Shown here: piece after piece, positions 10,556-27,655 of the stretch | Position numbering within the stretch: position 1 is the first letter of the stretch | Layout: the number at the start of each line of letters is the position of its first letter | Source of the DNA: Patescibacteria group bacterium | Lineage (GTDB): Bacteria; Patescibacteriota; UBA1384; XYA2-FULL-43-10; 1-14-0-10-43-13 | DNA length: 64,000 nucleotides | Assembly (NCBI GenBank): GCA_041649155.1 | Contig: JBAZNP010000001.1 | Location: forward strand, 238,564-302,563 | Reading direction: 5' to 3' | The notes under the pieces: model-generated | The model's database searches: none | Told to the model about the DNA's origin: nothing | The model's input: only the letters and a program-made list of their open reading frames with translations | Program-made: the position numbers and the translations under genes

Positions 10556-10571
10556 GTTGTAAGTTTAAATT

Positions 10572-11321: not shown

Positions 11322-11339
11322 GCGAGCCCAATATGTGCT

Positions 11340-11936
11340 CTAAGCGAGCTGATTTGCGGCAATGTATTTCGCAACCTTCTGTTGCATTTCCGGTTCGACC
11401 TTGCCTGCAGATACAAGAACTTCCAACACCTCAGAAAGTTTTCCGAGCGAATGAAGCTTGTATCCAGCTTTGGCAAGAATCTTGTCGCCGCCTTGTTCAC
11501 GGTCAAGGATAACTAAAACATCTTCCACTACCAGGCCTGCTTCCTTGAGTGGAGCAATGGCTTCGATCTTGCTGGCGCCGTCAGTGATAATGTCATCGAT
11601 CACCAAGACTCTATCACCCTCCTCGTACTCGCCTTCGATCAGCTTCTTGGTACCATATTCCTTGACTTCCTTGCGTGAGTAAATCATTGGAATATTTCCT
11701 TCGAGAGAAGCAGATACTCCAAGTGGAATGCCAGCATAAGGAATTCCAGCGATCAGATCGCATCCGATTTCTTTTGCCTTATTAGACAATGCACAACCGA
11801 TTTCCGAAAGAAGCTCCGGTTTGGAAACCAATCCGCGAAAGTCGCAATAAACTGGAGACGTACTCCCATTTTTAAGAATGAACTCTCCAAATTTAATGCA
11901 TCCAGCGTCAAAGATATTTCCATACAATTCTTTCAT
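11340..11936 (-). CDS. pyrE: Orotate phosphoribosyltransferase
   Basis: PRPP-binding motif VLVIDDIITDGASK and an OPRTase N-terminal region. GC is about 50%, against about 35% in the flanks. Confidence 0.9.
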   Translation of the reverse strand: MKELYGNIFDAGCIKFGEFILKNGSTSPVYCDFRGLVSKPELLSEIGCALSNKAKEIGCDLIAGIPYAGIPLGVSASLEGNIPMIYSRKEVKEYGTKKLIEGEYEEGDRVLVIDDIITDGASKIEAIAPLKEAGLVVEDVLVILDREQGGDKILAKAGYKLHSLGKLSEVLEVLVSAGKVEPEMQQKVAKYIAANQLA

Positions 11937-11980
11937 AGTTTCACCTCCTTTCTCTCACGTGAGTGATGAAACTTGAGGAC

Positions 11981-12916
11981 TCATCCCCTGTGAATGTAGA
12001 CAGGATATCCGATCTTTGTCTCCAAGGCCTGGTTTAGATCCCTGTTTGCGTCATCGATAGCTGCTGCAACCAAGGTAAGCGGGTCACCCTCTCGAGGTTT
12101 CCCAGATTTACGGTCAAACCAGCTATCAAGTGTGATGCCTCGCGAGCTGTTGACAGTACCCATCAGCTCCTTGCGAGTGTTGACAAGACCTTCTACTGCT
12201 CCAGCAGCTCCTCCACCTTGCGCTCCATATCCTGGAATCAGGAGGAAAACTTCATCCCCAGCATGCTGGCGACAGCTTGTTGCCTGCTCGGGCCAAGTCG
12301 CACCCACTACTCCGCCGACTCGGCCGAGATTGTTTGTAGCAGCCATGACCTGCTCGTTCCACGCTTTGACTCCCTCGGCCAAAAACTCGTAAACAAGTAA
12401 TCCCGAATCGAGCTTCTGGTCTTGGAGCCATGCTGCTTCGGGATTACTTGTGCGAATCATGGAAATAACCATGCAACCGCTTGCCAAGTCGTTCATCCAA
12501 GACAATGTGCCCTTGTTCGCCATGAATGTCGGACCAAGATAAGGAATAAAGGTACATGCATCTACGCCATATCTTCCGAATACCTCATCTGCATACTGAG
12601 CCATTGTCTCGCCTATATCTCCGCGCTTAGCATCGAGAATAACTAAGAGCCCCTTGCTCTTAGCGTAGGCTATAATGCGGATCATCATTTGGATGCCGCT
12701 TGGACCAAAAGCTCCATAATAGGCATACTGCGGTTTGACTACTGCAACTTTCTCAGCTGCAAGATCAATAACTGCCTCAAGGTATCTTTCCAATGCTGGA
12801 AGACCCTTATGCCCAAATGTTTTAGGCACATGCTGGAAGGTTGGATCCAATCCAACACAGAGAACAGACTTCTTGACCAATACTGCTTTTAAATAACGAG
12901 TTACAAAGCTCTGCAC
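11981..12916 (-). CDS. pyrF: Orotidine-5'-phosphate decarboxylase (long, type 2 form)
   Basis: 311 aa with VKPQYAYY...ILDAKRGDIGET motifs. GC is about 50-53%, which produces several long antisense ORFs that are artefacts. Confidence 0.85.
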   Translation of the reverse strand: MQSFVTRYLKAVLVKKSVLCVGLDPTFQHVPKTFGHKGLPALERYLEAVIDLAAEKVAVVKPQYAYYGAFGPSGIQMMIRIIAYAKSKGLLVILDAKRGDIGETMAQYADEVFGRYGVDACTFIPYLGPTFMANKGTLSWMNDLASGCMVISMIRTSNPEAAWLQDQKLDSGLLVYEFLAEGVKAWNEQVMAATNNLGRVGGVVGATWPEQATSCRQHAGDEVFLLIPGYGAQGGGAAGAVEGLVNTRKELMGTVNSSRGITLDSWFDRKSGKPREGDPLTLVAAAIDDANRDLNQALETKIGYPVYIHRG

Positions 12917-13070
12917 TAATGGAAACCTCCTCCAAAAAGATAGGAGGCATTTCAGCCTCCTTCCGATATTTTATACAATAAAAACACTTAAAAGGCAAAC
13001 AAAAATTCGCAACCAGTGCAAAAAATTTGTTAACATATATTTGAGCAATTATATTTAACAAAGGAGAAAT

Positions 13071-13478
13071 ATGGGAGAATTAATGACCGAAATGTCACAA
13101 GAAGAAACCAAAGAAACAAAGGAGCGAACTGACTTTGCCAAAATTGCAGAGATAAATAAAAATGCTGCTTTAGAAATTGAAGGTCTCAGATTGTCGCAGA
13201 AAGAAAACTACTCAACTCAAAGTTTAGAGGAGTTATTAAACTGGCTAGAACAACCAATAGAAAATGAAGAACTTTTGGAAATTATTGAAAAATCTTTAAA
13301 GGCAGCTCATATTATGGCTGATGATGAGAAAACGAACATCCAGACAGAAATTAATACAGTTAAAGACGATTTAAGCAATATGATTCATGATCGTAATTTC
13401 ATCACACAATTTCATACAAAAACAGAGGGTTTATTTGAATTCTGTAAAGCCCTCTCTTATTTCTCTTTAATGAAATAA
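13071..13478 (+). CDS. Hypothetical acidic protein
   Basis: 135 aa, Glu-rich and predicted helical, no motif recognised. It is the only plus-strand gene inside a run of minus-strand genes. Confidence 0.3.
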   Translation: MGELMTEMSQEETKETKERTDFAKIAEINKNAALEIEGLRLSQKENYSTQSLEELLNWLEQPIENEELLEIIEKSLKAAHIMADDEKTNIQTEINTVKDDLSNMIHDRNFITQFHTKTEGLFEFCKALSYFSLMK

Positions 13479-13516
13479 CTGTATCTTAAAATATTGTAGA
13501 TTGTTTTAATTGGAAT

Positions 13517-13550
13517 AAAAAAACAGGGCCTGCCATCATGGCAAGTCCTG
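13517..13550 (-). terminator. Rho-independent terminator for the radical-SAM gene
   Basis: Hairpin CAGGGCCTGCC...GGCAAGTCCTG followed on the minus strand by TTTTTTT. Confidence 0.5.
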
Positions 13551-13568
13551 CTGTAAGCATTCCCTCAC

Positions 13569-14999
13569 TTAGTCTGCAAGATGGTAAAGCCGCATTCCTG
13601 TCGGCTCTGGTACACTGTCTTCCGGAGTCCTTGGGAAATAATATAATTTTCCTTCTTTATTCCTTCTGCTTCCCCATTCGAAATCCGGTTTCTTTTTCAC
13701 TTCTCCGTTAACCCGGATATGTATACCGTCTATATTTGCATCCGGATCCCAATTTTCGTAATCGTCTCCTTTCCGCAATTCAACCGCTCGCCCAGTTCGA
13801 AAGGAAATTGGGGTGAGTAAGATATTACTTTTGATCCCCAATTTCTTCTCCATTAGACCACTAAACAATATGGCCATCATTTCCACAATCCGGCGGTCTT
13901 CATCATCTCCTTTATCGTAATACAGATTTACAAGCGGATTAAGAGAAGCTGCCTCACTAATCATTCTCTCGATCTCAGAAACATAAAGGCGGGAATCTTT
14001 CCTAAAATGCCGCTCTCCCGTTGAAACCGAAATTCGGTGTCGTTTACTATCAACCAGATGATTTTCGGCACAAATTTCGACGACTTTCTTCATCGCCCGA
14101 CAAGCGATTTTATCTTCAGAAAACCATCCTGCTGTTGTCACTGTAACTGGCCGAATGCACGTGGACATCAAACGAAAAACATCACCATAGTCTGCCGGAG
14201 TTCCATCCTGATGTAGAAAACGAAAATCACGATATTCAAGCGGATCATTATCCTCATAGTTGGAGACACAATTGATAATTGACCCTAAGTTAATTGGGAC
14301 GAAATGAAGATAGCGCCCCCTTAAGGCGTTCAGAGGCAAAGACTCCTCAAACGGGACTCTCAGTTTTAAAACCTTGCGGGGGAATTTCTCCCACTCGGCT
14401 AAAAGAAGATTAAAAAAGCCTATCAGCTCATTTTTACGGGCTGTGTTGACAAATTTCCGCACTCGAAATTTCTTAAAATCAACAATTTTCGCTTTCCTAA
14501 GATGTTCTTCCCAATCCTTCCACTCTTGGCAACCAAGTTTTTCGTACTTCCACTTCTTTTCCGCAATTTTCGCAATAGCCGCGAAAGGCGTCATCTCCAG
14601 TCGACAAGCAGCGTCTCTGTAGCACTGTTTACACTGGTGAGTACAACCTTTATGGGACTGAACGCAACTCAATCCCCAACCGAATACTTCCACCTCCTGC
14701 TCTGGAGTAAGATCAAAATCAGCGAAGAGTTCAAGTCTTGGATTCTCAACCGTAGGGAGAATGTCGACATACTTCGCTGGTATACTACCAGCGGCAAGAA
14801 AAGACTGTGCTTCTTTTTTTAACTCCATGCCTAATTCCGATAGCGGATACCGTTGGTGCAAGAACGCTCTTGCAATTAGATAAGCGATCTCCTCAGTGCT
14901 TTTTTTAGTAGTTCTCAATATTGCCACCACCTTTCCACATAGAATGTGCTCCTCTCTTGAGGCCGCGCCAACTATACCACGAAAAGAGTATTTTTTCAA
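13569..14999 (-). CDS. Radical SAM domain protein, family unassigned
   Basis: 476 aa with a canonical CxxxCxxC cluster (GCTHQCKQCY). No SPASM-like second cluster seen. GC is about 45%. Confidence 0.65.
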   Translation of the reverse strand: MKKYSFRGIVGAASREEHILCGKVVAILRTTKKSTEEIAYLIARAFLHQRYPLSELGMELKKEAQSFLAAGSIPAKYVDILPTVENPRLELFADFDLTPEQEVEVFGWGLSCVQSHKGCTHQCKQCYRDAACRLEMTPFAAIAKIAEKKWKYEKLGCQEWKDWEEHLRKAKIVDFKKFRVRKFVNTARKNELIGFFNLLLAEWEKFPRKVLKLRVPFEESLPLNALRGRYLHFVPINLGSIINCVSNYEDNDPLEYRDFRFLHQDGTPADYGDVFRLMSTCIRPVTVTTAGWFSEDKIACRAMKKVVEICAENHLVDSKRHRISVSTGERHFRKDSRLYVSEIERMISEAASLNPLVNLYYDKGDDEDRRIVEMMAILFSGLMEKKLGIKSNILLTPISFRTGRAVELRKGDDYENWDPDANIDGIHIRVNGEVKKKPDFEWGSRRNKEGKLYYFPRTPEDSVPEPTGMRLYHLAD

Positions 15000-15219
15000 G
15001 CCAAAAACAGTTCATTCACAAACTGGCTCAAGTCTGCTAGAATAAGCTCATTATGTCACTAAAGATCGGAACTCGCAGCTCGCTACTCCAACTTTACAAT
15101 TCAAGTTTATGTACGTACTCCCAGCACCCAGAAAAGAACGAATCATCGTTCAACGAGACCGTTTAGGCAGAATTGTTCACTCAAAGCCACCAAAAATGAG
15201 AGTTTGAATACAAATAGTA

Positions 15220-16185
15220 CTATTGCAATTGATTTTTGCTTAGAAAATCTCGAACTAAATAAGATATAATTTTATTGCCTTGGTAAAAGCCAAGCATTTT
15301 TTGTAAGCTATCAGCTTCTTTTGAGTAGCCGTATTTATAAGACCATTTTACTCTATCGAGATTTATTTTTTCAGCTTCGATAAGATTGATTTGCTTTCGT
15401 TTTATCTTTTTGCCTGGCAAGTTAGGGTCAATCATTTCTATTACTATTTTAGGAGTCATCACAAAAACGTGTTTCCTTTCAAGAAAAGTCGGTCCATATG
15501 GTCCTTTTCTTTCTGGGAAAATCTCAATGACTGGCGTATCGGAGGTGATAAATCGTTCATCAAGCGAAATATAGATTCGCCATTTCTTGCCTAAAACAAG
15601 ATTCACAAACCCTTTCATATCCGTCATTAAATTGAGGTGAGAGGTGTTATCAATTTTTAATTCATAATCACCTGATTGAAAAAGTTCTTTGGCTTGCTTA
15701 ACTAATTCATCATTTTCAGCTTCGCCTCGTTGTTTCATTATTTTGTGTACAGATTCATCAAAACCTGGAAAATGAGCATATTTCTTGAATATCTGCTTCC
15801 TCATATCTTCGTTCATTTTGTTTATATTTTCTCGCATCATTGGATTTCGCATCCAAAGAGCAGCCATAAACCAAGCCAATCTATATTGGTCCTCTTCGCT
15901 TATTGGCTTGTAATTAAGAATATCCTCCGCAATCCTGTCGTAATCAGGAGCAATTATGTCCTCTGTTTGCTTGAGAAACGTCTCGATTTCTTGACTTACT
16001 TCATCAGGAACGCCTGTTTCTTGAGCATAATAAAAATCAGCGTAGCAAACGCCAGAATAGGGCTTAGATTTAACAATCTTCGCATTTTTTATATCTAAGA
16101 CCTGCAGCAGATTATCGCTTGCTGCAAAACGCTTAAAATAGAACTTGGGGGCAAAATGTTGCTTGGCAGTTATTTGTTCGGCCAT
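15220..16185 (-). CDS. DUF4238-like protein
   Basis: 321 aa. The N-terminus (KQHFAPKFYFKRFAA...LQVLD) matches the characteristic DUF4238 start (H-x-P-x-F-Y-L-x-x-F). Its start abuts the stop of the ABC ATPase gene. Confidence 0.5.
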   Translation of the reverse strand: MAEQITAKQHFAPKFYFKRFAASDNLLQVLDIKNAKIVKSKPYSGVCYADFYYAQETGVPDEVSQEIETFLKQTEDIIAPDYDRIAEDILNYKPISEEDQYRLAWFMAALWMRNPMMRENINKMNEDMRKQIFKKYAHFPGFDESVHKIMKQRGEAENDELVKQAKELFQSGDYELKIDNTSHLNLMTDMKGFVNLVLGKKWRIYISLDERFITSDTPVIEIFPERKGPYGPTFLERKHVFVMTPKIVIEMIDPNLPGKKIKRKQINLIEAEKINLDRVKWSYKYGYSKEADSLQKMLGFYQGNKIISYLVRDFLSKNQLQ

Positions 16186-17841
16186 CTAATCTAAGTCAAT
16201 TAACATATCATCCAAGGCGATGGTTGATGACATTTGAGATTCTTTTTTCCAAATCTCGCTTGTATCACTAAAATACTTTTCAATAACTTGCTTATTTTTC
16301 TCAAAGAACTTTTCGTTCTCTTCTTTATCAAACAGTTTTAGCTTTTCCATTTGATTCTTCAATTCAACTTTAGAAATCATCAGCGAGTGAGCTATGATAC
16401 CGCTTGATTCTTCAAGATTCTTATTATAATAATCTACTGTCCTCTCCCAAACGGAAACAATCTTTTTAACCTCACTTTTTCTTGCCTGAATTGTTTCTTC
16501 CTTGGCAACCAATACATCGAATATGGCAGGGTATTCCAAAGTTGAGGCCAGTAATTTTCCGCCAGATAAGTTCTTGGCCTGGGTCAGCCAAGGTTCGAAT
16601 GTAACTGCAGCATCCACCTTGTCAGAGATTAGGGCAGCGCCAATATCGCTCCCCTTCAAGTGGACCAGCTTTACATCCTCCGAGGAAAGGTTATTTTGTT
16701 TAAGCAAATATAACAAGAAAAAATGACTTACCCAGTTTTCCTCAACAGCAATTTTTTTACCTTTTAGGTCATTGAAATTAGAAATATCCTTATTTACGAT
16801 TAGCCCATCCCCACCCACAGATTGATTGAGAGCCATTATTATCTTCAGGTCTTTTATTTTCTCTTTGGCGAGTATTGCAGTATCCAGCGTTGAAACAAAT
16901 AAATCCACATTCCTTTCAATCAATGGCTCGACTCGGTTTTCTTGTTTCTCAAGGTCAATCAATTCAACATCGAGTTTATTTTTATCAAACAAACCAAGTT
17001 CTCTCGCAATGTAAAACGGACTATTCCCAGGCCAAGCGTGAAGACCAATTTTAAGCGAATTGGGGTTGATTTCTTTGTACGATAGCCCTGCAGATTTTAG
17101 TGCCTCACCTCTTACCAAATAGGTCAAATGCTTCTTTACTTCAAAGAACTCTTGAGAAAGCTTGATGCTCGATATTCTTGGACGAGGCAAACCAATTGGG
17201 ACCACCTCTTTGATAGTTCCAGGACGAGCGCTCATAACATAAACACTATCAGCCAAAAATATAGCTTCCTCAATATCGTGAGTTACAAACAAAACCGTTT
17301 TTTTACTCTCTTCCCAAATAGAGGAAATAAGTTCTTGCATCAAACTTTTTGTTTGTGTATCCAAGCTAGAAAATGGCTCATCCATTAACAAAACATCAGG
17401 GTTTCGAGCCAAAACTGTGGCAATAGCCACCCTCTGTCTCATTCCACCAGATAGTTCACTAATATAGGCATTTTCAACCCCCTTCAACCCTACGGCATTG
17501 ATAAAATACCTGGTTATCTCATTTTTCTTCTTCCTGTCCATCTTACTGTCTAGCCCAAAAGCAATGTTATCTCGAACACTTAGCCAGGGAAAAGCAACGT
17601 AATTTTGGAAAACAAAACCAATCTTTTCATTGGGAAACTCGATTTTTTTACTGCCATAAAAAACATCGCCTGAATCTGGTTTTATCATTCCAGCAATCGT
17701 TTTTAATAGTGTTGTCTTACCGCACCCAGAAGGACCAACAATTGCAATAAACTTCTTATCCTCCGCTGAGACAGAAATGTCTTTTAGCACTTGGTTCTTA
17801 TCAAATGCAACGAATAGATTTTTTATATTTAATATGCTCAT
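16186..17841 (-). CDS. ABC ATPase (NitT/TauT family) fused to a C-terminal NMT1/SsuA-like substrate-binding-protein domain
   Basis: N-terminal Walker A GPSGCGKTT, signature LSGGMRQRVAIA, Walker B LLMDEPFSSLD. Residues about 250-551 resemble the separate binding protein at 20419..21450; both carry DAAVTFEPWL. Confidence 0.8.
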   Translation of the reverse strand: MSILNIKNLFVAFDKNQVLKDISVSAEDKKFIAIVGPSGCGKTTLLKTIAGMIKPDSGDVFYGSKKIEFPNEKIGFVFQNYVAFPWLSVRDNIAFGLDSKMDRKKKNEITRYFINAVGLKGVENAYISELSGGMRQRVAIATVLARNPDVLLMDEPFSSLDTQTKSLMQELISSIWEESKKTVLFVTHDIEEAIFLADSVYVMSARPGTIKEVVPIGLPRPRISSIKLSQEFFEVKKHLTYLVRGEALKSAGLSYKEINPNSLKIGLHAWPGNSPFYIARELGLFDKNKLDVELIDLEKQENRVEPLIERNVDLFVSTLDTAILAKEKIKDLKIIMALNQSVGGDGLIVNKDISNFNDLKGKKIAVEENWVSHFFLLYLLKQNNLSSEDVKLVHLKGSDIGAALISDKVDAAVTFEPWLTQAKNLSGGKLLASTLEYPAIFDVLVAKEETIQARKSEVKKIVSVWERTVDYYNKNLEESSGIIAHSLMISKVELKNQMEKLKLFDKEENEKFFEKNKQVIEKYFSDTSEIWKKESQMSSTIALDDMLIDLD

Positions 17842-20404: not shown

Positions 20405-20418
20405 TTATGCCTCAACTT

Positions 20419-21450
20419 TCAAAGGTTATTTATGATGCTCTTATCAACCGCATCGTCGATATTTGGTTTAGATTTTATCGAACCAATTTCGAGAAAAGCA
20501 TTGCTGAAAGTATCAGCAACGTCAAAGAACTTTCCCTTCTGATTTCCGACTCCAAAATACGTCTTATTTTCATCAAGCATCGGCCACTTAACACCTGTAA
20601 TTAGGTCAGCAAACTCAGAAGTTGACACGTTATAATGTTTGGCCATTATCTCGTTTGATTCTTGAGGATTAGCTTTCCAATAATCGAGCGCCTTAAACCA
20701 ACCTCTCACAACCTTTTTAACTGTATCTGGGTGATTTTTTAGATAACTTGCGTTTATTGACAAGGTATCAACAATTACTCCTGGTTCATCCGCACTGCTA
20801 ACCAACACTTTACCATCTTTTCTTTCTTTCGCCTTTGAAAGCCAGGGTTCAAATGTAACCGCTGCATCGACTTGTCCAGAAGCAAAGGCAGCTCCAGCCG
20901 CACCAGATTCAGTGTCTACTTCATCAACGTCAGATAAAGACATACCATTTTTCTTTAGAACATACATTAGGAAACTTTCACCGACAAAGTTTTTCTGGAC
21001 AGCAATTTTTTTGCCTTTCAAACCTTGGACGGTTTTGATGTCATTTTTCGTTACAATTCCATCAGCACCGTTGGATTCATCTACTTGTAAAACAGTTACA
21101 GATGGCACGCCTTCATCCCTCGAGAGAACCAATAAATCGACTGTGTCACCCAAACCGTCAACAGTCCCATTCATCATTGCAGCTTTTCTCTGGGCTGTAT
21201 CTTCGAGAGTCGTGATATTAACATTAACACCTTCATCTTTGAAAAACCCTTTTTCTTGGGCAAGGTATAATGGGCCGTAGCCAACCCAAGTATTCACGCT
21301 TAAATTAAACTGGTCCAGTCCCTCCGAACCCTTATTGTTTTTGTGATACAAAAAGTAAACTCCACCAGCAATAAGTCCTACTAAAATGACACCGAGAAAA
21401 GCAATTAACCATTTTCTTTTTGAATTGTCAGGTGAGATTTCGTCTTCCAT
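20419..21450 (-). CDS. NMT1/SsuA-type periplasmic substrate-binding protein with N-terminal membrane anchor
   Basis: 343 aa, single N-terminal TM helix, SsuA/ThiY-like fold motifs (GKKIAVQKNFVGESF...DAAVTFEPWL). Confidence 0.7.
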   Translation of the reverse strand: MEDEISPDNSKRKWLIAFLGVILVGLIAGGVYFLYHKNNKGSEGLDQFNLSVNTWVGYGPLYLAQEKGFFKDEGVNVNITTLEDTAQRKAAMMNGTVDGLGDTVDLLVLSRDEGVPSVTVLQVDESNGADGIVTKNDIKTVQGLKGKKIAVQKNFVGESFLMYVLKKNGMSLSDVDEVDTESGAAGAAFASGQVDAAVTFEPWLSKAKERKDGKVLVSSADEPGVIVDTLSINASYLKNHPDTVKKVVRGWFKALDYWKANPQESNEIMAKHYNVSTSEFADLITGVKWPMLDENKTYFGVGNQKGKFFDVADTFSNAFLEIGSIKSKPNIDDAVDKSIINNL

Positions 21451-21463
21451 ACTTACTCCCTTT

Positions 21464-22231
21464 CTATTTAATTATGGCTTTTGATTCAAATAACTCAAAC
21501 TTCACTGGGTGGGTTTCTACGGATTCAACACTTGCAATCGTACGAAATGTAAACCCATTATTTTTTATAAGCTCCTTTAACTTTTCAATATGCCCTAGCG
21601 TTGAAGAAAAACCGATTAGCAATCGGCCACCTTCTTTTAAGTGATTTTTTGCCTCTTCGATAAAAGTTCTTGTTGATTTGTATCCAGGGTCAAAAACTGC
21701 TTTTTCTAGGGTTGTGACATCTTCATTTTCAGTATATCCAAAAGGAGTATTCCAAAAAACCGTATCGAATTTTTTATCACCGATTGGAGAGTAAAGATTC
21801 CCTTCGTAAACGCTAACTTGTTTTTCCATCTTGTGTATTTTAGCGTTCTCCTGTGTGTTTTTAACTGCATCAGGATTTATATCAACAGCGGCCACTATAG
21901 CGCCCTTCAATGCCATCCAAACGCTAACGACACCACTTCCTGGCCCAATTTCCAAAAACTCTTCGCCCTGTTCCACAAAAATCTCTTTAGCAAAAAACTC
22001 TGTGTCAAAAAAATACTTTGGGCTGAAAACATTTGGATAAACTATAAACTTTTTGCCTAATATCTCTACCCAGTAAGGCGAAGTTTCTTTTTGGCTTTCA
22101 TCAAGGACCTTTTTAGTGCCATCAAGATATTTTTTCTTTTCTTTCATACAAAACTTCCAATCGATAATTATACGATTAGTATCTACATAAATTATAGCAC
22201 TGTCGGCTACTATCTGTCGACTTGTCAACAA
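21464..22231 (-). CDS. Class I SAM-dependent methyltransferase (small-domain MTase family)
   Basis: Gly-rich SAM site LEIGPGSGVV, an acidic residue ending beta-2 (VDIN), and an NTPF tetrad in the position of the NPPY/DPPF motif. Confidence 0.6.
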   Translation of the reverse strand: MLTSRQIVADSAIIYVDTNRIIIDWKFCMKEKKKYLDGTKKVLDESQKETSPYWVEILGKKFIVYPNVFSPKYFFDTEFFAKEIFVEQGEEFLEIGPGSGVVSVWMALKGAIVAAVDINPDAVKNTQENAKIHKMEKQVSVYEGNLYSPIGDKKFDTVFWNTPFGYTENEDVTTLEKAVFDPGYKSTRTFIEEAKNHLKEGGRLLIGFSSTLGHIEKLKELIKNNGFTFRTIASVESVETHPVKFELFESKAIIK

Positions 22232-22256
22232 TACCTTTGCAAACTAGAATTAAGAT

Positions 22257-22982
22257 ATGAAACTAGAAGAACACCTTTCTTTTTTACTTAATGATAACTC
22301 GTTCAAAAAGATTATTTTTGATTTGAGAAAACAAGTAGGTATTTCAGAAGATGGCTTCAAAAAAGACGAGGATTTTAATTCCTGGAATGAAACTTATTCC
22401 GCTGATGCCCTGCAAAAAATAGTAAAAAGCCCAGGGACTATAATTGATGAAACATCACAAAAACTCATTCGCAGTTTAAGCGAGGCGGAAGACAAAAAAA
22501 TTGATAAGCGAAAACTTGATGCAATTGTTTCCAAAGTACTAAAAAAATATAAATTGCCAAGTGCTGCCAGTCAGAGCATATTAAGCTTCTTGATTTTCAA
22601 TAAAATTGAAGTAACCCCAGACAAGACCAAAAATTATAAAGCTTTTTTGTCTTATGAAGATGGTCAGTGGAATCTCTATTTGAAATTGTCAGGAATATGT
22701 CGAGCTGAAGACATCTCCTGGAAAAAAGACATTCGACCTTTGCAAAAGTTCCTGGCTGATTACACAGGCAGCTTACGACCATTAAAAGATGCGAGCGATT
22801 ATAAATTGATTACCTCTAAGAGAAACTCTAAAACAAAAAGGAAGTGGAAAGGGATTGCTTATAGCTCGTTGCCTGAAGAAATTAACTTAATTGATAGCAG
22901 CGAAAGTAAAGTTCTGGTCAATAAAAGAAAAAACCAACTCAAAGCGAAAAACGCTCGTTTAAGAAGGAAATTGAACACTTAA
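22257..22982 (+). CDS. Hypothetical basic protein
   Basis: 241 aa, Lys-rich, no motif recognised. Confidence 0.3.
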   Translation: MKLEEHLSFLLNDNSFKKIIFDLRKQVGISEDGFKKDEDFNSWNETYSADALQKIVKSPGTIIDETSQKLIRSLSEAEDKKIDKRKLDAIVSKVLKKYKLPSAASQSILSFLIFNKIEVTPDKTKNYKAFLSYEDGQWNLYLKLSGICRAEDISWKKDIRPLQKFLADYTGSLRPLKDASDYKLITSKRNSKTKRKWKGIAYSSLPEEINLIDSSESKVLVNKRKNQLKAKNARLRRKLNT

Positions 22983-23027
22983 AACCTCCGAAATAAACGT
23001 AACCTGGTAAATAGGTCTATTTTGTTA

Positions 23028-23049
23028 CGCTTAGCGTAGCGTTTTTTTA
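23028..23049 (+). terminator. Rho-independent terminator after the 22257..22982 gene
   Basis: Hairpin ACGCT-tagcgt-AGCGT followed by TTTTTTT. Confidence 0.5.
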
Positions 23050-23274
23050 ATTGAAAACACTTCAAGTCGCGGAGGTCCTGTCAGCTGGATTGCATTGCGA
23101 CTCAAAATAAGTTTGCAGGAGAACTGGCCCCATACGCAAAACCACACGGATACCTCATTCTCAGGCAGTCAGTAGTAAGTATTTAATCTTAATAACTTAA
23201 ATACCTACTGCCTAGAAAAGGAAACGGCTGGAAGGCGGAGGGAGGGTCTAATAGTAGGAATCTGGAGGTAATAA

Positions 23275-23454
23275 ATGAGTCAACAAATCGTCAAAAAGAC
23301 AAAGCAAATCAGAATCAGCACAGAGCTGCACAAGCTTTTGAAAGTCGAAGCGGCAGAAGCTGGTAAATCAATCAAAACCGTCCTGGAGGAGAAGCTGGAC
23401 TTTGTACCCCCTACCCCCACTTGCGAAGCAAGCGAAGAGGGTTCAGATGAGTAA
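23275..23454 (+). CDS. Ribbon-helix-helix (CopG/Arc-like) DNA-binding protein, 59 aa, not in ORF track
   Basis: MSQQIVKKTKQIRISTELHKLLKVEAAEAGKSIKTVLEEKL... has the beta-strand / helix / helix pattern of RHH regulators. Its stop overlaps the next ORF's start (ATGA). Confidence 0.55.
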   Translation: MSQQIVKKTKQIRISTELHKLLKVEAAEAGKSIKTVLEEKLDFVPPTPTCEASEEGSDE

Positions 23455-23818
23455 GTGCAGCTTTATCAAAAAAGACGGTAACAAGTGCAGAGCTAATGCA
23501 ATGCACGATTCAAAGCTTTGTTTTGTTCATAATCCAGAGTGCGAAACAGAAAGACAAAAAGCCATCGTTGACGGAGGCAAGCAAACCAGAAAGCCGAGAG
23601 TATCAACGGAGGCAATAACGCTTGAGAAGATTGAGGATATTCTACCCTTTCTTAACAAGCTCATCAACGAGGTCAGGCGTGGGGATTTAACTTCAAAATC
23701 GGCAAATGCAATCGGTTATTTAATTAACATCGCAATTGATGCCCTTAAACAAACGGACATCGAACGAAGATTAAAGGAGATAGAAAATGCAATCAAATTA
23801 CGAGAAAAAGAGCTTTGA
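23447..23818 (+). CDS. Hypothetical protein (element cargo)
   Basis: 124 aa counted from the ATG overlapping the RHH stop. N-terminal Cys/His cluster (CSFIKKDGNKCRANAMHDSKLCFVHNPEC) that could be a zinc-binding motif. Confidence 0.35.
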   Translation: MSKCSFIKKDGNKCRANAMHDSKLCFVHNPECETERQKAIVDGGKQTRKPRVSTEAITLEKIEDILPFLNKLINEVRRGDLTSKSANAIGYLINIAIDALKQTDIERRLKEIENAIKLREKEL

Positions 23819-24404
23819 GCTTTTTGACAAGCTGGACATTTACGAAAAGTACAAGGTGATGATGTCCGAAAAAAGCGTTGTGAATACCAGGACTTTGCGG
23901 TCCAGGTTATCAACGGAGGAAGAGCAACAATTTTGGCAGATTTTAGACGATAGCAAAAAGTTTGCTCAAAACCTCAAGGAGTTATTGCTGTTGTCCTTAC
24001 TCAGAAAAGACGTTATGCAGGATATTTTGAAACTGCACCTCAAGCTCGTCGAGGACCAACCATTCAGAAAAACCGATGATGAACTTTTGGAAATCGTTAG
24101 TCAAATAAAAGATTCTGGGGCGGAGCTGGATAAATTAAACAATCAAATGCTTGAACTAATCGAAGAGACGGAATCATTGCAGCAATCCCTGCACCGCCTG
24201 AATTATCCTATCGCTTTTACTCCTGAAATGAATCCAGAAAAGATACGAATACAAGCAGAATTGTTTAAGGGGCTAACCGACATCGAAAATCCACAAGTTT
24301 TTATTCAGCAAGCGAGAGCTTTGGAAGTTCGAGAAATGGTTCAAGGTAATGAGTTAAGAGAAAACTTTATCAATCAAATCAATAAATGGCTTGAGGTCAT
24401 TTAA
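23787..24404 (+). CDS. Hypothetical protein (element cargo)
   Basis: 205 aa, predicted helical / coiled-coil, no motif recognised. Confidence 0.3.
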   Translation: MQSNYEKKSFELFDKLDIYEKYKVMMSEKSVVNTRTLRSRLSTEEEQQFWQILDDSKKFAQNLKELLLLSLLRKDVMQDILKLHLKLVEDQPFRKTDDELLEIVSQIKDSGAELDKLNNQMLELIEETESLQQSLHRLNYPIAFTPEMNPEKIRIQAELFKGLTDIENPQVFIQQARALEVREMVQGNELRENFINQINKWLEVI

Positions 24405-24422
24405 GGAATTAAGAGTTTAGCA

Positions 24423-24602
24423 ATGAAGCGAGTAATGCCAATTAAAACCGAGTTCAAACTACTGGAAAACGACGAAACAAAGAGTCGTGTTCAGTTGGCA
24501 TATAATCGCATCTTTACCATTGCTAATCAGAATCTTATGAAGCAAGAAATGGCAAAAAGGCAAGCAAAAAAGAAAGGAGGTATTGACAGTAATGTACAGT
24601 AA
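24423..24602 (+). CDS. Small hypothetical protein, 59 aa, not in ORF track
   Basis: MKRVMPIKTEFKLLENDETKSRVQLAYNRIFTIANQNLMKQEMAKRQAKKKGGIDSNVQ. Position and size fit a phage-type small regulator. Confidence 0.3.
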   Translation: MKRVMPIKTEFKLLENDETKSRVQLAYNRIFTIANQNLMKQEMAKRQAKKKGGIDSNVQ

Positions 24603-24639
24603 AGTACAATAAGAGTACATAAACAAAGGAGAGCTGATT

Positions 24640-24813
24640 ATGGAAAAACAAGAAAATGAGTTCCTAACCGTTGAAGAAGTAGCTGAAAAATATCGAGTCG
24701 CTGTTGCTACAATCTACCGAATGGTTAGAAAAGGAGAAATCCCAGCCATCAAGTTTGGCAAAGTGTGGAGAATTAAAAAGAACGAACTGGAAGAAAAATT
24801 AAGCAATAAATAA
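24640..24813 (+). CDS. xis: Excisionase / AlpA-family helix-turn-helix protein (57 aa), not in ORF track
   Basis: MEKQENEFLTVEEVAEKYRVAVATIYRMVRKGEIPAIKFGKVWRIKKNELEEKL matches the excisionase-family HTH_17 pattern (LT..E.A..L.VS..TIYR....G..P..K.G..WR.....L). It lies directly upstream of the serine recombinase. Confidence 0.7.
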   Translation: MEKQENEFLTVEEVAEKYRVAVATIYRMVRKGEIPAIKFGKVWRIKKNELEEKLSNK

Positions 24814-24868
24814 AACAAAGCCAGAGTCCTAACGACGAATTAGAAGCACTCTGGCTAAGGAGGAGTCA

Positions 24869-26509
24869 ATGTCCCCAATTCATAATACAAAAGAGAGCGA
24901 AAGTTCTCAACCCCTCATTGCAGGAATGTACGCTCGTGTTTCGACAGGACGACAGGAGCAAGAGGAAACCATCGAATCACAACTCGATGAAATTAAATCA
25001 AAAATAGAAGAAGACGGAAACATCTTGCCAAGCGAGAACGTATTTGTTGACGATGGCTGGAGCGGCGAGATTTTCATTCGTCCAGAGCTTGATAAGCTCA
25101 GAGATGCCATCAGAGCAAAAACGTTTCAGGTGTTATATGTCTATGACCGAGGAAGAATTGCTCGAAAGTTCGCCTATCAAGAGATTGTTTTAGAAGAGTT
25201 AATCAACGCTGAAATACAATTCATCACATTGCACGACTCGCCAGGCAATACACCTGAAGAAAAAGTCCTACAAGCGATGCAGGGAGTTTTTGCGGAGTAT
25301 GAACGTATCAAGATTTATGAAAGATTTCGACGAGGTAAACTTTATAAGGCGAAAAGCAAGATTCTGATAAACGGTCATTCGCTTTATGGCTACAACTACA
25401 TTAAGAAAACCGAAGAAGTCCCAGCTCATTACGAAATCAACGAGGAAGAAACCAGAATAGTCCGAATGATATTTGAATGGGTTGGAGTCGAACAAATATC
25501 CTTACGAGAAGTTATAAGACGTTTGTATGACCTTGGAATACCGCCCAGAAAGCACAAGAGCGAGTTTTGGACCAAAGGCCCTATTGTTCGCCTTTTACAG
25601 TGCGAGGCGTACTCTAAGGGCAAAATCTACTATAATAAATCGGAGGCAGTAGTTCCGAAAAAGCCACTGAAGGATACCAAATACAGAAAAATCAAAAGAA
25701 GCAGTCGTAAAGTTCGGCCACGTGAAGAATGGTATGCTTTCGACGTTCCAACCATACTTGAAGATAATGGCCTATTTGAAAAAGTCCAGGAAATCCTTAG
25801 CTCCAATCAGAAATACGCCACCAAAAATCGAAAGTACGAGTACCTTTTGACCAGCAAAGTATATTGTACGTGTGGTAGCCCTCGTGCAGGTGATGGAAGC
25901 AATGCTGGTGGTCATCATTATTATCGTTGTGCTGAACGCATCTATAAGTTCCCAAAAGAGCACAAGTGCAAGCTTCCAGGCGTAAACGCAGAGGTACTAG
26001 ATAAAACGCTCTGGGATAATCTGCTAAAGTTTATGAGCAATCCAGTGCCGCTGCAGCAAGCTGCTGAAGAATATCTCAAGTTTGAAACCGAAAAGGGGTG
26101 TAATTCGGAACGTGAAGAAAAGCAGATTGCAGCTTACGTTGCCAAAATTCAAGAGGAAGAAAAACGCTACGCCAAAGCATACGGCACGGAAGCGATTGAC
26201 TTTGAAAGCTTCAAAGACCTGATGAAAGAGTGCAAGAAAAGGACGCAATCTTATACAAAGCAGCTCAAAGAGATTCAGAGTAAAAAAGAAGAGTCAAAAA
26301 TAAATCCGTCAAAGCTAAACCAGCTTTGCCAAGAAGCTCGAAAAGTGCTAGAATTACTAGATATAAGCAACAAAATACAGATAGTCAGAGATTTAATTGA
26401 TAAAGTAACGATAAAAGAAGATAGAAAGGTAGAGGTATTGGGTCATATACCCTTAATGCCCCTAAAGTTGGAATATGAACCTATCAGTCGGGATCGTCGG
26501 CCTCCCTAA
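24869..26509 (+). CDS. Large serine recombinase (serine integrase)
   Basis: N-terminal resolvase catalytic domain (YARVSTGRQ, catalytic Ser), a recombinase domain, then a zinc-ribbon-like Cys cluster (CTCGS...CAERIYKFPKEHKCKLPG) and a coiled-coil region. Confidence 0.9.
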   Translation: MSPIHNTKESESSQPLIAGMYARVSTGRQEQEETIESQLDEIKSKIEEDGNILPSENVFVDDGWSGEIFIRPELDKLRDAIRAKTFQVLYVYDRGRIARKFAYQEIVLEELINAEIQFITLHDSPGNTPEEKVLQAMQGVFAEYERIKIYERFRRGKLYKAKSKILINGHSLYGYNYIKKTEEVPAHYEINEEETRIVRMIFEWVGVEQISLREVIRRLYDLGIPPRKHKSEFWTKGPIVRLLQCEAYSKGKIYYNKSEAVVPKKPLKDTKYRKIKRSSRKVRPREEWYAFDVPTILEDNGLFEKVQEILSSNQKYATKNRKYEYLLTSKVYCTCGSPRAGDGSNAGGHHYYRCAERIYKFPKEHKCKLPGVNAEVLDKTLWDNLLKFMSNPVPLQQAAEEYLKFETEKGCNSEREEKQIAAYVAKIQEEEKRYAKAYGTEAIDFESFKDLMKECKKRTQSYTKQLKEIQSKKEESKINPSKLNQLCQEARKVLELLDISNKIQIVRDLIDKVTIKEDRKVEVLGHIPLMPLKLEYEPISRDRRPP

Positions 26510-27566
26510 CGTCGGCAAGTCAACATTATTTAACGCATTGGTCAAAGGTTCAAAGGCAGAAGCGGCTAATTATCCGTTCTGCACCATTGAGCCTAATGTT
26601 GGCATTGTAGAGGTTCCTGATGAGAGATTGGCTCCTTTAGTTGAAGTTTCCAAGTCAAAAAAGGTCGTTCCGACCGTAATTGAGTTTGTTGATATCGCCG
26701 GTTTGGTAAGAGGTGCATCGAAGGGAGAGGGATTGGGCAACCAGTTTCTTGCTCACATTCGCGAATGCGACGCTATCGCTATGGTTGTCCGCTTCTTTGA
26801 AGACGGAAATATCGCTCATGTCGATGGCAAAATTGATCCGCTTTCTGATATTGAAACAATTGAAACCGAGCTTCAGCTTGCCGACATTGCCACTGTTGAG
26901 AAAAGACAGTTTTCAGTCGAAAAAGAATTGAGATCGGGCTCGAAAGAGTCAAAATTCGCTCATTCAGGCCTTCAGAAAATCAAAGATGTTCTATATGACG
27001 GTAAAAATGCCCGAACAGCCAAGCTTGATGAGTTAGAAACAGAAGCCCTTAAAGGCTTGCAGTTAATGACACAAAAGCCAATTTTATATATTGCCAATGT
27101 TTCAGAAGACGAACTCGCCCATTTTGACGAGATAAAAGAAAGACCAGGATTTAAAAATATTGAATTATTACCCATCTCGGCACGAATTGAGAGTGAATTG
27201 AATGAACTAAATGAGCTGGAAAAGAAAGAATACCTTGAAGCTCTAGGTGTTAATGATACCGGACTTAACAACTTGATCAAAAAAGCATATGAAACGCTAG
27301 GATTAATCACCTACCTCACCTCAGGAGAGCAGGAAACCAGAGCTTGGACTATTAAAAAAGGCTTCAAAGCCCCCCAAGCTGCCGGAGTAATTCACACCGA
27401 TTTTGAAAAAGGCTTCATTGCCGCGGATGTGATCCCATGGCAAGATTTGTACGCTCAGGGAGGCTGGACCGGAGCTCGTGCCAAAGGCCTTGTTCGAACT
27501 GAAGGCAAGGAATATGTCGTTAAAGATGGCGACGTATGCTTGTTTAAATTTAATGTGAAAAAATAG
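26475..27566 (+). CDS. ychF: Ribosome-binding ATPase YchF
   Basis: G1 motif GIVGLPNVGKST, the NYPFCTIEPN segment, a TGS-like C-terminus. The first 35 nt overlap the 3' end of the recombinase gene. Confidence 0.9.
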   Translation: MNLSVGIVGLPNVGKSTLFNALVKGSKAEAANYPFCTIEPNVGIVEVPDERLAPLVEVSKSKKVVPTVIEFVDIAGLVRGASKGEGLGNQFLAHIRECDAIAMVVRFFEDGNIAHVDGKIDPLSDIETIETELQLADIATVEKRQFSVEKELRSGSKESKFAHSGLQKIKDVLYDGKNARTAKLDELETEALKGLQLMTQKPILYIANVSEDELAHFDEIKERPGFKNIELLPISARIESELNELNELEKKEYLEALGVNDTGLNNLIKKAYETLGLITYLTSGEQETRAWTIKKGFKAPQAAGVIHTDFEKGFIAADVIPWQDLYAQGGWTGARAKGLVRTEGKEYVVKDGDVCLFKFNVKK

Positions 27567-27626: not shown

Positions 27627-27655
27627 TCGAGCTGCCCCGAAAGGGAGTACACAAC

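What the first reader, a model, noticed from the sequence alone, without database searches (positions are those of the whole stretch)
11322..26510. Hypothesis: the whole 11.3-26.5 kb segment (pyrEF, radical SAMs, ABC/DUF4238 operon, methyltransferase) is one genomic island mobilised by the serine integrase
The compositional shift starts exactly at the convergent junction 11322..11340 (cofE-like stop, then pyrE stop). The segment ends with the integrase abutting ychF. Everything in between is accessory-type: GC-elevated pyrEF, orphan radical SAM, DUF4238, an unusual transporter, a methyltransferase, and small unknown genes. Large serine recombinases typically move islands of 10-50 kb. I looked for junction similarity and found only a short shared CGTTAGG / CCTAACG core at both ends (11316..11322 versus 26505..26511, reverse complement). 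That is well within chance, so the boundary is an inference from composition and gene content only.
Basis: inference. Interest (0 to 1): 0.55.

Follow-up and report, generated by a model that had tools for sequence, protein, structure and literature searches.

The report
Mobile element inserted in ychF start
An 11.4-kb mobile element sits in the sixth codon of the conserved ychF gene of a small-genome Patescibacteria bacterium; its serine integrase gene contains its own attachment site, so insertion cuts off the integrase's tail and gives ychF a new start, and the same layout recurs in dozens of related bacteria.

Summary
The left boundary and the "one island" idea are wrong.

The integrase-bounded element is window 15070-26491 (11.42 kb), not 11322-26510.
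- attR lies in ychF codon 6.
- attL lies at 15044-15097. It carries the displaced native ychF promoter and first codons (MSLKIG).
- A relative whose YchF is 96% identical has exactly the predicted empty site.

pyrE, pyrF and two unknown genes (11340-14999) lie upstream of the old ychF promoter, outside the att sites. They form a separate variable block with a different composition (GC 0.47 against 0.39).

Two features were not expected:
- attP lies inside the integrase gene. Integration removes a conserved 45-residue C-terminal tail, which stays at attL. Database homologues carry the tail contiguous with the integrase.
- The integrase's 3' end supplies ychF with a new start codon (MNLSVG).

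Of 68 informative homologous loci from diverse Patescibacteria, 63 have ychF abutting the integrase and 4 are attP-type.

Cargo here is DUF4238 plus an ABC-transporter / B12-radical-SAM / methyltransferase operon. No phage or conjugation genes were found.

This is a new variant of large-serine-recombinase integrative elements. What the tail does is inferred, not shown.

The parts
10572..11321 (+). cofE-like F420-0:gamma-glutamyl ligase family gene. Conserved left flank, not part of the element.
   Evidence: PF01996, E=1.9e-37. Collinear with L083 up to about 11308.
11340..14999 (-). Separate variable block outside the att sites: pyrE (11340-11936, -), pyrF subfamily 2 (11981-12916, -), unknown 135 aa (13071-13478, +), unknown 476 aa with CxxxCxxC (13569-14999, -).
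   Evidence: TIGR00336 and TIGR02127 score above their cut-offs. Absent from L083, L084 and L086. GC is 0.47 over pyrEF. No tail, attL-like site or flanking repeats. Nearest pyrF homologues are Berkelbacteria/Patescibacteria.
15015..15043 (+). Displaced native ychF promoter (TTCACA-17-TGcTAGAAT), 9 nt before the old ATG.
   Evidence: Promoter scan, 10 of 12 matches plus TG. Aligns with the ychF upstream regions of the empty sites L084 and L083.
15044..15097 (+). attL: B arm with the old ychF start (ATG 15053, MSLKIG), crossover GG at 15068-15069, P' arm at 15070-15097 with the distal motif TACTCCAACT.
   Evidence: The same architecture occurs in about 25 other loci.
15070..15207 (+). Detached 3' end of the integrase gene: 45 codons plus stop (NSQLATPTLQFKFMYVLPAPRKERIIVQRDRLGRIVHSKPPKMRV*). 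It is in frame with int across the reconstructed attP.
   Evidence: The tail is contiguous with int in P0128, P0177, P0179 and P0200. Identity by codon position is 0.56/0.71/0.38.
15220..16185 (-). Cargo: DUF4238 protein.
   Evidence: PF14022, E=3.4e-33. A distant homologue sits next to attL in L102.
16186..22231 (-). Cargo operon: methyltransferase (21464-22231), SsuA-family binding protein (20419-21450), B12-binding radical SAM (18602-20404), permease (17838-18605), ABC ATPase fused to an SsuA-like domain (16186-17841).
   Evidence: Not found in the other elements of the family.
22257..24602 (+). Element backbone genes: unknown 241 aa (22257-22982), Omega/ribbon-helix-helix regulator 59 aa (23275-23454), unknown 138 aa (23402-23818), unknown 205 aa (23787-24404), unknown 59 aa (24423-24602).
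   Evidence: The Omega-like gene is shared with 9 loci, the 59-aa gene with 21 loci, and the 138-aa gene with L090.
24640..24813 (+). HTH_17 excisionase-like protein, the candidate recombination directionality factor, immediately upstream of int.
   Evidence: PF12728, E=1.5e-16. PHROG excisionase families. Homologue present upstream of int in 70 loci. Promoter-like site at 24583-24610.
24869..26509 (+). Large serine recombinase in its integrated (truncated) form, 546 aa. The last 6 codons (DRRPP*) are read from ychF in another frame.
   Evidence: PF00239, PF13408, phrog_95. Family alignments. AF2 model and Foldseek hits to SPbeta, phiC31, Bxb1 and LI integrases.
26462..26517 (+). attR: P arm (distal motif AGTTGGAATA at 26466-26475, new ychF ATG at 26475), crossover GG at 26490-26491, B' arm in the ychF P-loop codons.
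26475..27566 (+). ychF with a chimeric 5' end: codons 1-5 (MNLSV) come from the element, and Gly6 onwards is native.
   Evidence: 119 of the 120 closest YchF homologues do not have this N-terminus; about 100 begin with M.L[KQ]I-type starts.

Best explanation
Window 15070-26491 is an 11.42-kb integrative element of a Berkelbacteria-like Patescibacterium. It was inserted by its own large serine recombinase (LSR) into codon 6 of ychF.

Shown from sequence:
- attP is a roughly 56-bp quasi-palindrome, AGTTGGAATA-N14-GG-N14-TACTCCAACT. It lies inside the 3' part of the integrase gene.
- attB is ATGTCACTAAAGATC-GG-GATCGTCGGCCTCCCTAACG, that is ychF codons 1-12. The crossover is at the GG of Gly6.
- Integration leaves the native ychF promoter and MSLKIG at attL, 11.4 kb upstream.
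- Integration joins the body of ychF to a new start codon (MNLSVG) embedded, in another frame, in the integrase's 3' end.
- Integration also detaches the last 45 codons of the integrase, which remain as an orphan ORF at attL. The integrated enzyme ends with six codons read from ychF.
- The truncated enzyme keeps all canonical LSR domains.

Inferred:
- The truncated integrase, together with the adjacent HTH_17 excisionase-like protein, excises the element. Excision would restore a 586-aa full-length integrase and the native ychF.
- In the integrated state ychF is transcribed from within the element, by read-through from the HTH_17-int operon or from a weak internal promoter.
- The conserved tail, predicted as a three-stranded beta mini-domain, modulates integrase activity, stability or directionality according to whether the element is free or integrated.

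Cargo is DUF4238 plus a methyltransferase / binding-protein / B12-radical-SAM / permease / ATPase operon.

The pyrEF-containing block at 11340-14999 is a separate variable segment.
For: 1. Occupied versus empty sites. attL matches the upstream sequence and first 6 codons of empty ychF sites in L083 and L084. attR matches them from Gly6 onwards.
2. L177 (YchF 96% aa, 88% nt) carries exactly attL-left plus attR-right, with one synonymous difference.
3. The reconstructed attP has inverted distal motifs with 14+2+14 spacing, in both the window and L090. In L090 the only shared core is GG.
4. Of 68 informative non-duplicate loci with integrase homologues (44-68% identity; host YchF 40-68% identical to the window's), 63 have ychF abutting the integrase and 4 have the tail contiguous with it.
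5. The attR consensus is seen in about 55 loci and attL in about 25. Element sizes run from 6 to 11.5 kb.
6. The predicted tail occurs contiguous with the integrase in P0128, P0177, P0179 and P0200.
7. Twenty-five tails align with the motif PKPRKER.I..RD.LGRI..SK. Identity by codon position is 0.56/0.71/0.38, a coding signature. Tail-bearing proteins, nearly all short ORFs, fall in 74 clusters at 50% identity.
8. The AF2 model is a canonical LSR with a beta-strand tail.
9. An excisionase-like HTH_17 gene lies upstream of the integrase in 70 loci.
10. The element's tetranucleotide distance is about 6 SD above same-length background.
Against: - No read-level evidence of excision or of a circular form for this particular element.
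- The 6.2-kb attP-type contig L095 is not demonstrably circular.
- The empty-site relative L177 is only 88% identical in nucleotides, so it is not the same population.
- The element carries no recognisable replication, transfer or virion genes, so how it moves between cells is unknown.
- A promoter for ychF inside the element is not conserved: the same position in only 5 of 50 loci.
- The function of the tail is entirely inferred. Only 4 tail-bearing sequences supported that part of the structure model.
- One attP-type integrase (L094) sits in a chromosomal-looking context without ychF.
Confidence: 0.88

Rival explanations
1. One reading: the whole of 11322-26510 is one genomic island moved by the serine integrase.
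For: The whole interval is missing between cofE and ychF in L083. Both pyrEF and the element deviate compositionally from the background.
Against: - The native ychF promoter and first 6 codons sit at 15015-15069, inside the proposed island. They mark where the integrase-mediated insertion begins.
- There is no att-like site, tail or repeat at 11.3 kb.
- pyrEF (GC 0.47) and the element (GC 0.39) differ in composition.
- Family elements are 6-11.5 kb and never contain pyrEF.
Confidence: 0.04
2. The element is a fixed relic. The integrase-ychF pair is now a stable, vertically inherited arrangement, possibly retained because ychF depends on it, and the element no longer excises.
For: - ychF has lost its own promoter and depends on element sequence.
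- All three contigs with the identical YchF carry the element.
- There is no direct evidence of a circular form of this element.
- A defective pneumococcal prophage next to ychF is reported to act as a switch for its expression (PMC8637289).
Against: - The integrase ORF, the catalytic-serine motif, the HTH_17 gene, both att sites and the 45-codon tail ORF are all intact.
- Tails at attL are under coding-type constraint across 25 loci. That makes sense only if excision regularly rejoins them to the integrase.
- Empty sites exist in close relatives, and attP-type copies exist in metagenomes.
- Cargo differs from locus to locus.
Confidence: 0.12
3. It is a small prophage (for example inovirus-like) or an integrated plasmid, rather than a non-autonomous integrative island.
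For: - The size (6-11.5 kb) and the many small unknown genes fit filamentous phages or small plasmids.
- An Omega/ribbon-helix-helix regulator is typical of plasmids.
- Other family members carry a conserved 455-497-aa unknown protein and DUF5659.
- Inoviruses have been reported in the Candidate Phyla Radiation (PMC6813254).
Against: - PHROGs hits are limited to the integrase, the excisionase-like HTH_17 protein and a marginal (E=0.004) Arc-like repressor match for the 59-aa Omega-like gene; the other seven proteins scanned gave nothing.
- No relatives in 2.9 million IMG/VR contigs.
- No Rep, relaxase, Zot/pI-like or capsid domains in the window's element.
- Most of this copy is metabolic and transport cargo.
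Confidence: 0.1
4. The 11340-14999 block is the decayed remnant of an older element of the same family that integrated earlier at ychF (tandem accretion).
For: Tandem arrays and extra attL or tail remnants do occur in other loci: L126/L142, L149, L162, L111, L141. The block has foreign-looking GC.
Against: - The ychF 5' end displaced at 15053 is of the native type (MSLKIG with the native promoter). It is not the element type that a second insertion would leave.
- The block lies upstream of that promoter.
- It contains no tail, no int fragment and no att motif.
Confidence: 0.04

Closest known systems
Classical large-serine-recombinase prophages and elements that target genes (TP901-1, A118 in comK, SPbeta in spsM, phiC31, Bxb1)
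   Same: - Same enzyme class: resolvase catalytic domain, zinc ribbon and coiled coil. Foldseek top hits are SPbeta, phiC31, Bxb1 and LI integrases.
- Quasi-palindromic att sites of about 50 bp with a 2-bp crossover.
- attP lies at the 3' end of int. In TP901-1 the core is 26 nt after the stop codon.
- A small directionality-factor gene.
   Different: - Sequence identity is only 25-27%.
- Here attP has moved inside the ORF, so integration changes the integrase's C-terminus.
- The target gene is not disrupted (that comK and spsM are disrupted is from my own knowledge). It is re-headed with an element-encoded start codon.
Wolbachia phage WO large serine recombinases
   Same: The closest integrases in the phage collection: 34% identity over 93% of the protein.
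   Different: These are large tailed prophages of an alphaproteobacterial endosymbiont. A different target is reported for them (from my own knowledge: a magnesium chelatase gene). No int-spanning attP is known to me.
Pipolins with LSRs integrated at ychF in Actinomycetota (bioRxiv 10.1101/2024.05.22.595293)
   Same: LSR-bearing integrative elements for which ychF was identified as the integration site from genomic context.
   Different: Pipolins are defined by a primer-independent PolB, which is absent here. The phylum is different. That paper reports no att sites or split integrase in the passages read. Whether the integrases are related was not tested.
SSV1-type integrases of archaeal viruses (review PMC8371274)
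   Same: attP lies within the integrase gene, so integration partitions the gene (listed; the mechanism is from my own knowledge of that literature).
   Different: These are tyrosine recombinases in archaea that target tRNA genes, and the split removes a large part of the enzyme. Here a serine recombinase loses only a 45-residue extra tail and keeps all canonical domains.
Integration-dependent immunity of mycobacteriophage BPs and relatives (PMC4557955)
   Same: attP lies inside a phage protein-coding gene, so integration yields a C-terminally truncated protein with different properties (abstract).
   Different: There the gene is the repressor and the integrase is a tyrosine recombinase. Here the integrase itself is remodelled, and the effect on its activity is unknown.
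Defective pneumococcal prophage whose int lies immediately upstream of ychF (Chen et al. 2019, as cited in PMC8637289)
   Same: A mobile-element integrase directly upstream of ychF, with the element reported to control ychF expression.
   Different: The host is a Firmicute. The attB is intergenic, between a DUF951 gene and ychF. The integrase type was not checked here, and no exchange of coding ends is described.

Membership tests
Large serine recombinase (serine integrase) | N-terminal resolvase-type catalytic domain with the nucleophilic serine | tested here: met
   PF00239, E=1.3e-23. The motif YARVSTGRQ is present, with S25 invariant in 30- and 120-sequence alignments.
Large serine recombinase (serine integrase) | C-terminal recombinase domain, zinc-ribbon domain and embedded coiled coil | tested here: met
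   PF13408, E=1.3e-07. PF07508 is precomputed for most homologues. The AF2 model of homologue P0179 (pLDDT 85) has long helices at 362-483. Foldseek hits full-length SPbeta, phiC31 and Bxb1 integrases at E down to 7e-21.
Large serine recombinase (serine integrase) | Short quasi-palindromic attP and attB sites that share only a central dinucleotide, with no long direct repeats at the element ends | tested here: met
   attP reconstructs as AGTTGGAATA-N14-GG-N14-TACTCCAACT. attB equals the empty site in L177. The shared core is TCGG in the window and GG in L090.
Large serine recombinase (serine integrase) | Catalysis of attP x attB recombination, and of attL x attR with a directionality factor | not testable with these tools
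   An HTH_17 excisionase-like gene is present upstream of int, but activity cannot be shown in silico.
Integrated mobile element / genomic island | Defined junctions with an empty site in relatives | tested here: met
   attL at 15044-15097 and attR at 26462-26517. Empty sites in L177, L083, L084 and L086.
   The right end is met. The left junction is at 15068/15070, not 11322. There is no att motif, tail or repeat at 11.3 kb.
Prophage | Virion, packaging or lysis genes, or similarity to known viral genomes | tested here: not met
   PHROGs hits are limited to the integrase, the excisionase-like protein and a marginal (E=0.004) Arc-like repressor match for the 59-aa Omega-like gene. No relatives in IMG/VR.
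Integrative conjugative or mobilisable element | Relaxase, oriT or type IV secretion genes | tested here: not met
   No such Pfam domains in any element ORF at E<=0.001, nor at E<=1 for the unknown proteins. oriT is not testable.
Pipolin | Primer-independent family B DNA polymerase (piPolB) | tested here: not met
   No polymerase domain in the element.
SSV-type split integrase system | attP inside the integrase gene, so that integration partitions the gene | tested here: met
   The int ORF continues across the reconstructed attP into 15070-15207. Contiguous versions exist in P0128, P0177, P0179 and P0200.
SSV-type split integrase system | Tyrosine recombinase of an archaeal virus | tested here: not met
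   The enzyme is a serine recombinase in a bacterium. This is an analogy, not membership.

The most novel reading that the evidence does not exclude
The position of attP inside the integrase gene is a regulatory device. The free (circular) element makes a 586-aa integrase whose conserved beta-strand tail favours integration or controls stability. Integration clips the tail and yields a 546-aa enzyme with different directionality or half-life. At the same time it places the conserved host gene ychF under the element's transcriptional control. This would be an integration-state-sensing serine integrase, a mechanism not described for this enzyme class. The family would also supply dozens of natural attP/attB pairs for the largely genetically intractable Patescibacteria.
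Probability: 0.35. Interest if true: 0.85.

Novelty: new variant of a known kind. Interest (0 to 1): 0.68.

Why it matters
- It turns a vague compositional "island" into a base-pair-resolved element with reconstructed attP, attB, attL and attR.
- It reveals a family of serine integrases, in more than 60 loci, that all target the first codons of ychF across the Candidate Phyla Radiation, a group in which mobile elements and genetic tools are barely known.
- Two coding sequences are swapped reciprocally. The integrase loses a conserved tail, and ychF gains an element-encoded start and loses its promoter. This suggests a way for a serine integrase to sense whether it is integrated, and for an element to take over expression of a universally conserved host gene.
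- Both ideas can be tested directly with the sequences given here.
- The att pairs could also serve as site-specific integration tools.

Tried and rejected
- The genome-contig scan with YchF returned only distant relatives (68% identity or less) and gave no usable synteny. Synteny came instead from exact-protein look-ups of closer YchF homologues.
- The first searches for a displaced ychF 5' remnant failed because the remnant is only 5-6 codons long: a 10-residue peptide pattern and degenerate DNA patterns. It was found through a short inverted match of the P-arm motif and by reading the sequence.
- The IMG/VR scan with an integrase profile found nothing.
- No tRNA genes or Rfam families in the window.
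- PADLOC gave no defence-system assignment for DUF4238 or the unknown proteins. The only hit was a generic methyltransferase match to mad2.
- A conserved internal promoter for ychF inside int is not supported: the same position in only 5 of 50 loci.
- The 11.3-15.0 kb block has no meaningful flanking repeats.
- The look-up of pyrF context in a relative (L178) showed an unrelated neighbourhood and did not explain how the block arose.
- L095/L096 could not be shown to be circular; L096 ends in adapter sequence.
- My regular expression for counting tail-bearing homologues was faulty. The count of 4 in 120 is by inspection.

Full report
**Setting**

The window is low-GC DNA (about 37%) from a Patescibacteria genome. 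YchF homologues are named Patescibacteria or Candidatus Berkelbacteria. The source contig is several hundred kb long (603 kb; 799 kb listed).

- cofE-like 10572-11321
- pyrE 11340-11936 and pyrF 11981-12916, both above the NCBIfam cut-offs
- two unknown genes of 135 and 476 aa
- DUF4238
- an ABC ATPase fused to an SsuA/NMT1 domain, then a permease
- a B12-binding radical SAM protein and an SsuA-family binding protein
- a HemK-like methyltransferase
- a plus-strand block of small unknown genes
- a large serine recombinase at 24869-26509, whose last 35 nt overlap the ychF start at 26475

The window contains no tRNA or Rfam hit.

Exact-protein look-ups of closer YchF homologues gave three contexts. 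They were compared with the window by blastn and tblastx.
- L083 (YchF 89%): Vut_1 and cofE are collinear with window 9874-11308. One unrelated 223-aa gene follows, then ychF.
- L084 (86%): collinear with window 1-9296, then directly ychF.
- L086 (83%): the 5'-3' exonuclease gene, an OMP decarboxylase, a 259-aa gene, then ychF.

The interval 11.3-26.5 kb is therefore indeed absent from relatives. The slot upstream of ychF is filled differently in each of them.

**The integrase always sits on ychF**

Integrase homologues at 44-68% identity are abundant in Patescibacteria. In the first three contexts examined (L090, L091, L092), the integrase lies immediately upstream of ychF and overlaps its start, exactly as in the window.

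A metagenome scan added 80 loci. Of 68 informative non-duplicate loci:
- 63 have ychF abutting the integrase's 3' end
- 4 carry a different, longer integrase 3' end (described below)
- 1 is unclear

The host YchF proteins are only 40-68% identical to the window's, so the hosts are diverse.

**Finding the junctions**

Occupied sites read M-x-L-(S/R)-V-G, and the sequence upstream of the ATG encodes the conserved integrase C-terminus (KLGYEP). Empty sites in relatives read M-(S/G)-L-K-I-G behind an unrelated promoter. The right junction therefore lies in the first codons of ychF.

A short inverted match of the motif TAAAGTTGGA led to window 15000-15100. That stretch reads: ttcattcacaaa...tctgctagaataagctcatt ATG TCA CTA AAG ATC GG, followed by aactcgcagctcgctactccaactttac.
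- The first part aligns with the ychF promoter and codons 1-6 of the empty sites L084 and L083. It scores as a promoter: TTCACA-17-TGcTAGAAT at 15015-15043.
- The second part is the inverted partner of the sequence left of the crossover at attR.

Joining the halves gives:
- attP = AGTTGGAATA-tgaacctatcagtc-GG-aactcgcagctcgc-TACTCCAACT
- attB = ATGTCACTAAAGATC-GG-GATCGTCGGCCTCCCTAACG

L090 has the same 14+2+14 architecture, and there the only shared core is GG.

A relative whose YchF is 96% identical (88% nt; L177) carries TATGTCGCTAAAGATCGGGATCGTCGGCCTCCCTAACG. That is the predicted empty attB with one synonymous change.

The element is therefore 15070-26491, 11.42 kb. The attR consensus recurs in about 55 loci and attL in about 25. 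Element sizes range from 6 to 11.5 kb.

**What lies outside**

pyrE, pyrF and the 135-aa and 476-aa genes (11340-14999) are upstream of the native ychF promoter. The integrase therefore cannot have delivered them.
- The block has no tail, att motif or flanking repeat.
- pyrEF has GC 0.47 and the strongest tetranucleotide deviation. The element has GC 0.39 and a moderate but significant deviation: 0.0172, against 0.0080 +/- 0.0015 for same-length background.
- The nearest pyrF homologues (58-78% identity) are from Berkelbacteria and Patescibacteria.
- In one relative, pyrF sits in an unrelated neighbourhood.

How this block arrived is unresolved.

**The integrase gene spans attP**

Read in the integrase frame, the reconstructed attP continues as an open frame from 15070 to a stop at 15205-15207. 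It adds 45 residues: NSQLATPTLQFKFMYVLPAPRKERIIVQRDRLGRIVHSKPPKMRV. L090 gives a homologous 48-residue extension.

Longer database homologues carry exactly this tail contiguous with the integrase. These are P0179 (573 aa), P0128 (579), P0200 (600) and P0177 (603). Their loci (L095/L096, L094, L114, L126) show attP-type sequence instead of ychF.

Twenty-five tails align with a strong motif: P(T/L)-(L/F)(E/D)F.F.F..PKPRKER.I..RD.LGRI..SK. Pairwise identity by codon position is 0.56/0.71/0.38, the signature of a translated sequence, even though most copies are detached at attL.

A search of 1.84 billion representative proteins with the 45-residue tail found 74 clusters. Nearly all are short ORFs that end in the tail, presumably orphan tails.

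An AF2 model of P0179 (pLDDT 85) is a canonical large serine recombinase. Foldseek hits SPbeta, phiC31, Bxb1 and LI integrases. After a disordered linker encoded by the att site, three beta strands form the tail. The integrated, truncated enzyme therefore keeps all canonical domains.

**Consequences and mechanism**

Shown:
- Integration exchanges coding ends.
- ychF keeps an intact ORF, but codons 1-5 and all upstream sequence now come from the element.
- The integrase loses its tail and ends in DRRPP*, read from the ychF P-loop codons in another frame.

Inferred:
- Excision by the truncated integrase together with the HTH_17 excisionase-like protein. That gene is present upstream of int in 70 loci.
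- Transcription of ychF from the element. Promoter-like sites lie at 24583-24610 and 26326-26354. The latter is not conserved.
- A regulatory role for the tail.

**Nature of the element**

The conserved backbone is the integrase, HTH_17, a 59-aa protein (21 loci) and an Omega/ribbon-helix-helix regulator (9 loci). The rest is variable cargo.

In the window the cargo is DUF4238 plus a five-gene transporter / radical-SAM / methyltransferase operon not seen in the other elements.

No virion, replication or conjugation genes were detected, and nothing similar is in IMG/VR. How the element transfers between cells is unknown.

**Comparison with what is known**
- The closest phage integrases are those of Wolbachia phage WO (34% identity), then SPbeta (27%) and TP901-1 (25%).
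- In TP901-1 the attP core lies 26 nt beyond the integrase stop codon. The present arrangement is a further step of a common layout.
- ychF has been noted as an LSR target for pipolins in Actinomycetota.
- A defective pneumococcal prophage next to ychF reportedly switches its expression.
- Conceptual parallels are the SSV1-type split tyrosine integrases (PMC8371274) and the integration-dependent immunity of mycobacteriophage BPs (PMC4557955).
- Full-text searches found no description of a serine integrase whose gene spans attP, nor of this family in the Candidate Phyla Radiation. The library is incomplete, so prior description cannot be excluded.

**Verdict**

The real object is an 11.42-kb att-bounded element at 15070-26491. 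It belongs to a widespread, previously unremarked family of ychF-targeting serine-integrase elements with an integration-split integrase gene. The pyrEF block is a separate variable segment.

Noticed in passing
L126 and L142 (same contig AMFJ01007473.1); L149 184-1917 and 9983-11641; also L162, L111/L134, L141, L102, L170, L120, L125: Tandem arrays at ychF. An upstream integrase that has regained a tail (a hybrid P-P' site) is followed by a second element whose integrase abuts ychF. Several loci have two or three orphan tail or attL remnants. This implies repeated insertion into a hybrid site (attL or attR), which standard serine-integrase rules do not predict.
   Followed up: partly
window 15015-15055, and the attL sites of about 25 loci: The native ychF promoter has an extended -10 box (TGnTAGAAT / TAAAAT) ending only 6-9 nt before the ATG. 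This suggests a leaderless or near-leaderless ychF mRNA in these bacteria. After integration the promoter points into the element, antisense to the DUF4238/ABC operon. It would translate a 37-aa fusion peptide (MSLKIGTRSS...).
   Followed up: partly
window 9300-15050, compared with L083, L084 and L086: The slot between the 5'-3' exonuclease/VTT genes and the ychF promoter varies independently of the integrase. It holds Vut_1 and cofE (window, L083), a 223-aa gene (L083), nothing (L084), or an OMP decarboxylase plus a 259-aa gene (L086).
   Followed up: partly
window 9793-9870: An intergenic sequence upstream of Vut_1 matches L084 (9839-9918) in both orientations. It is a palindromic element conserved just upstream of the variable slot.
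   Followed up: no
window 27599-32437, compared with L084 11179-14772: The region downstream of ychF is also variable. The window and L083 have a 563/575-aa unknown gene plus pyruvate formate-lyase-like and activating-enzyme genes. L084 has HD, radical SAM and HTH_Tnp_4 genes instead. L086 goes straight to rpsF-ssb-rpsR.
   Followed up: no
window 16186-17841: A single polypeptide fuses an ABC ATPase to a C-terminal SsuA/NMT1-type substrate-binding domain. It lies next to a separate SsuA-family binding protein, which is an unusual transporter architecture.
   Followed up: no
P0123, P0125, P0169, P0183, P0192 (integrase homologues of 573-598 aa): These have long C-termini unrelated to the conserved tail (for example ...GRDSRSSQRREKYAIQCASKKASS...). 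They probably read on through ychF in the alternative frame without meeting an early stop, or they mark a different target. P0125 looks like a frameshifted tail.
   Followed up: no
L094 10001-11812 (P0177): A full-length integrase with its tail, and with a 24-residue insertion at the att-encoded linker, sits in a chromosome-like context next to an ABC-F gene rather than ychF. It may be an inactivated attP or a different way of residing in the genome.
   Followed up: no
window 13569-14999: The 476-aa protein matches no family model. It has a CxxxCxxC motif (C119, C123, C126) and a marginal Fer4_12 hit, so it may be a very divergent radical-SAM-like enzyme.
   Followed up: partly
window 21464-22231: The cargo methyltransferase matches the PADLOC model mad2 (methylation-associated defence) at E=7e-23 and HemK2/MTQ2-type models in NCBIfam. 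The similarity may be generic to the methyltransferase fold.
   Followed up: no
window ~22000-22300: The cumulative GC-skew minimum of the window coincides with the divergent promoter region between the minus-strand cargo operon and the plus-strand backbone genes. It reflects gene orientation inside the element, not a replication origin.
   Followed up: no
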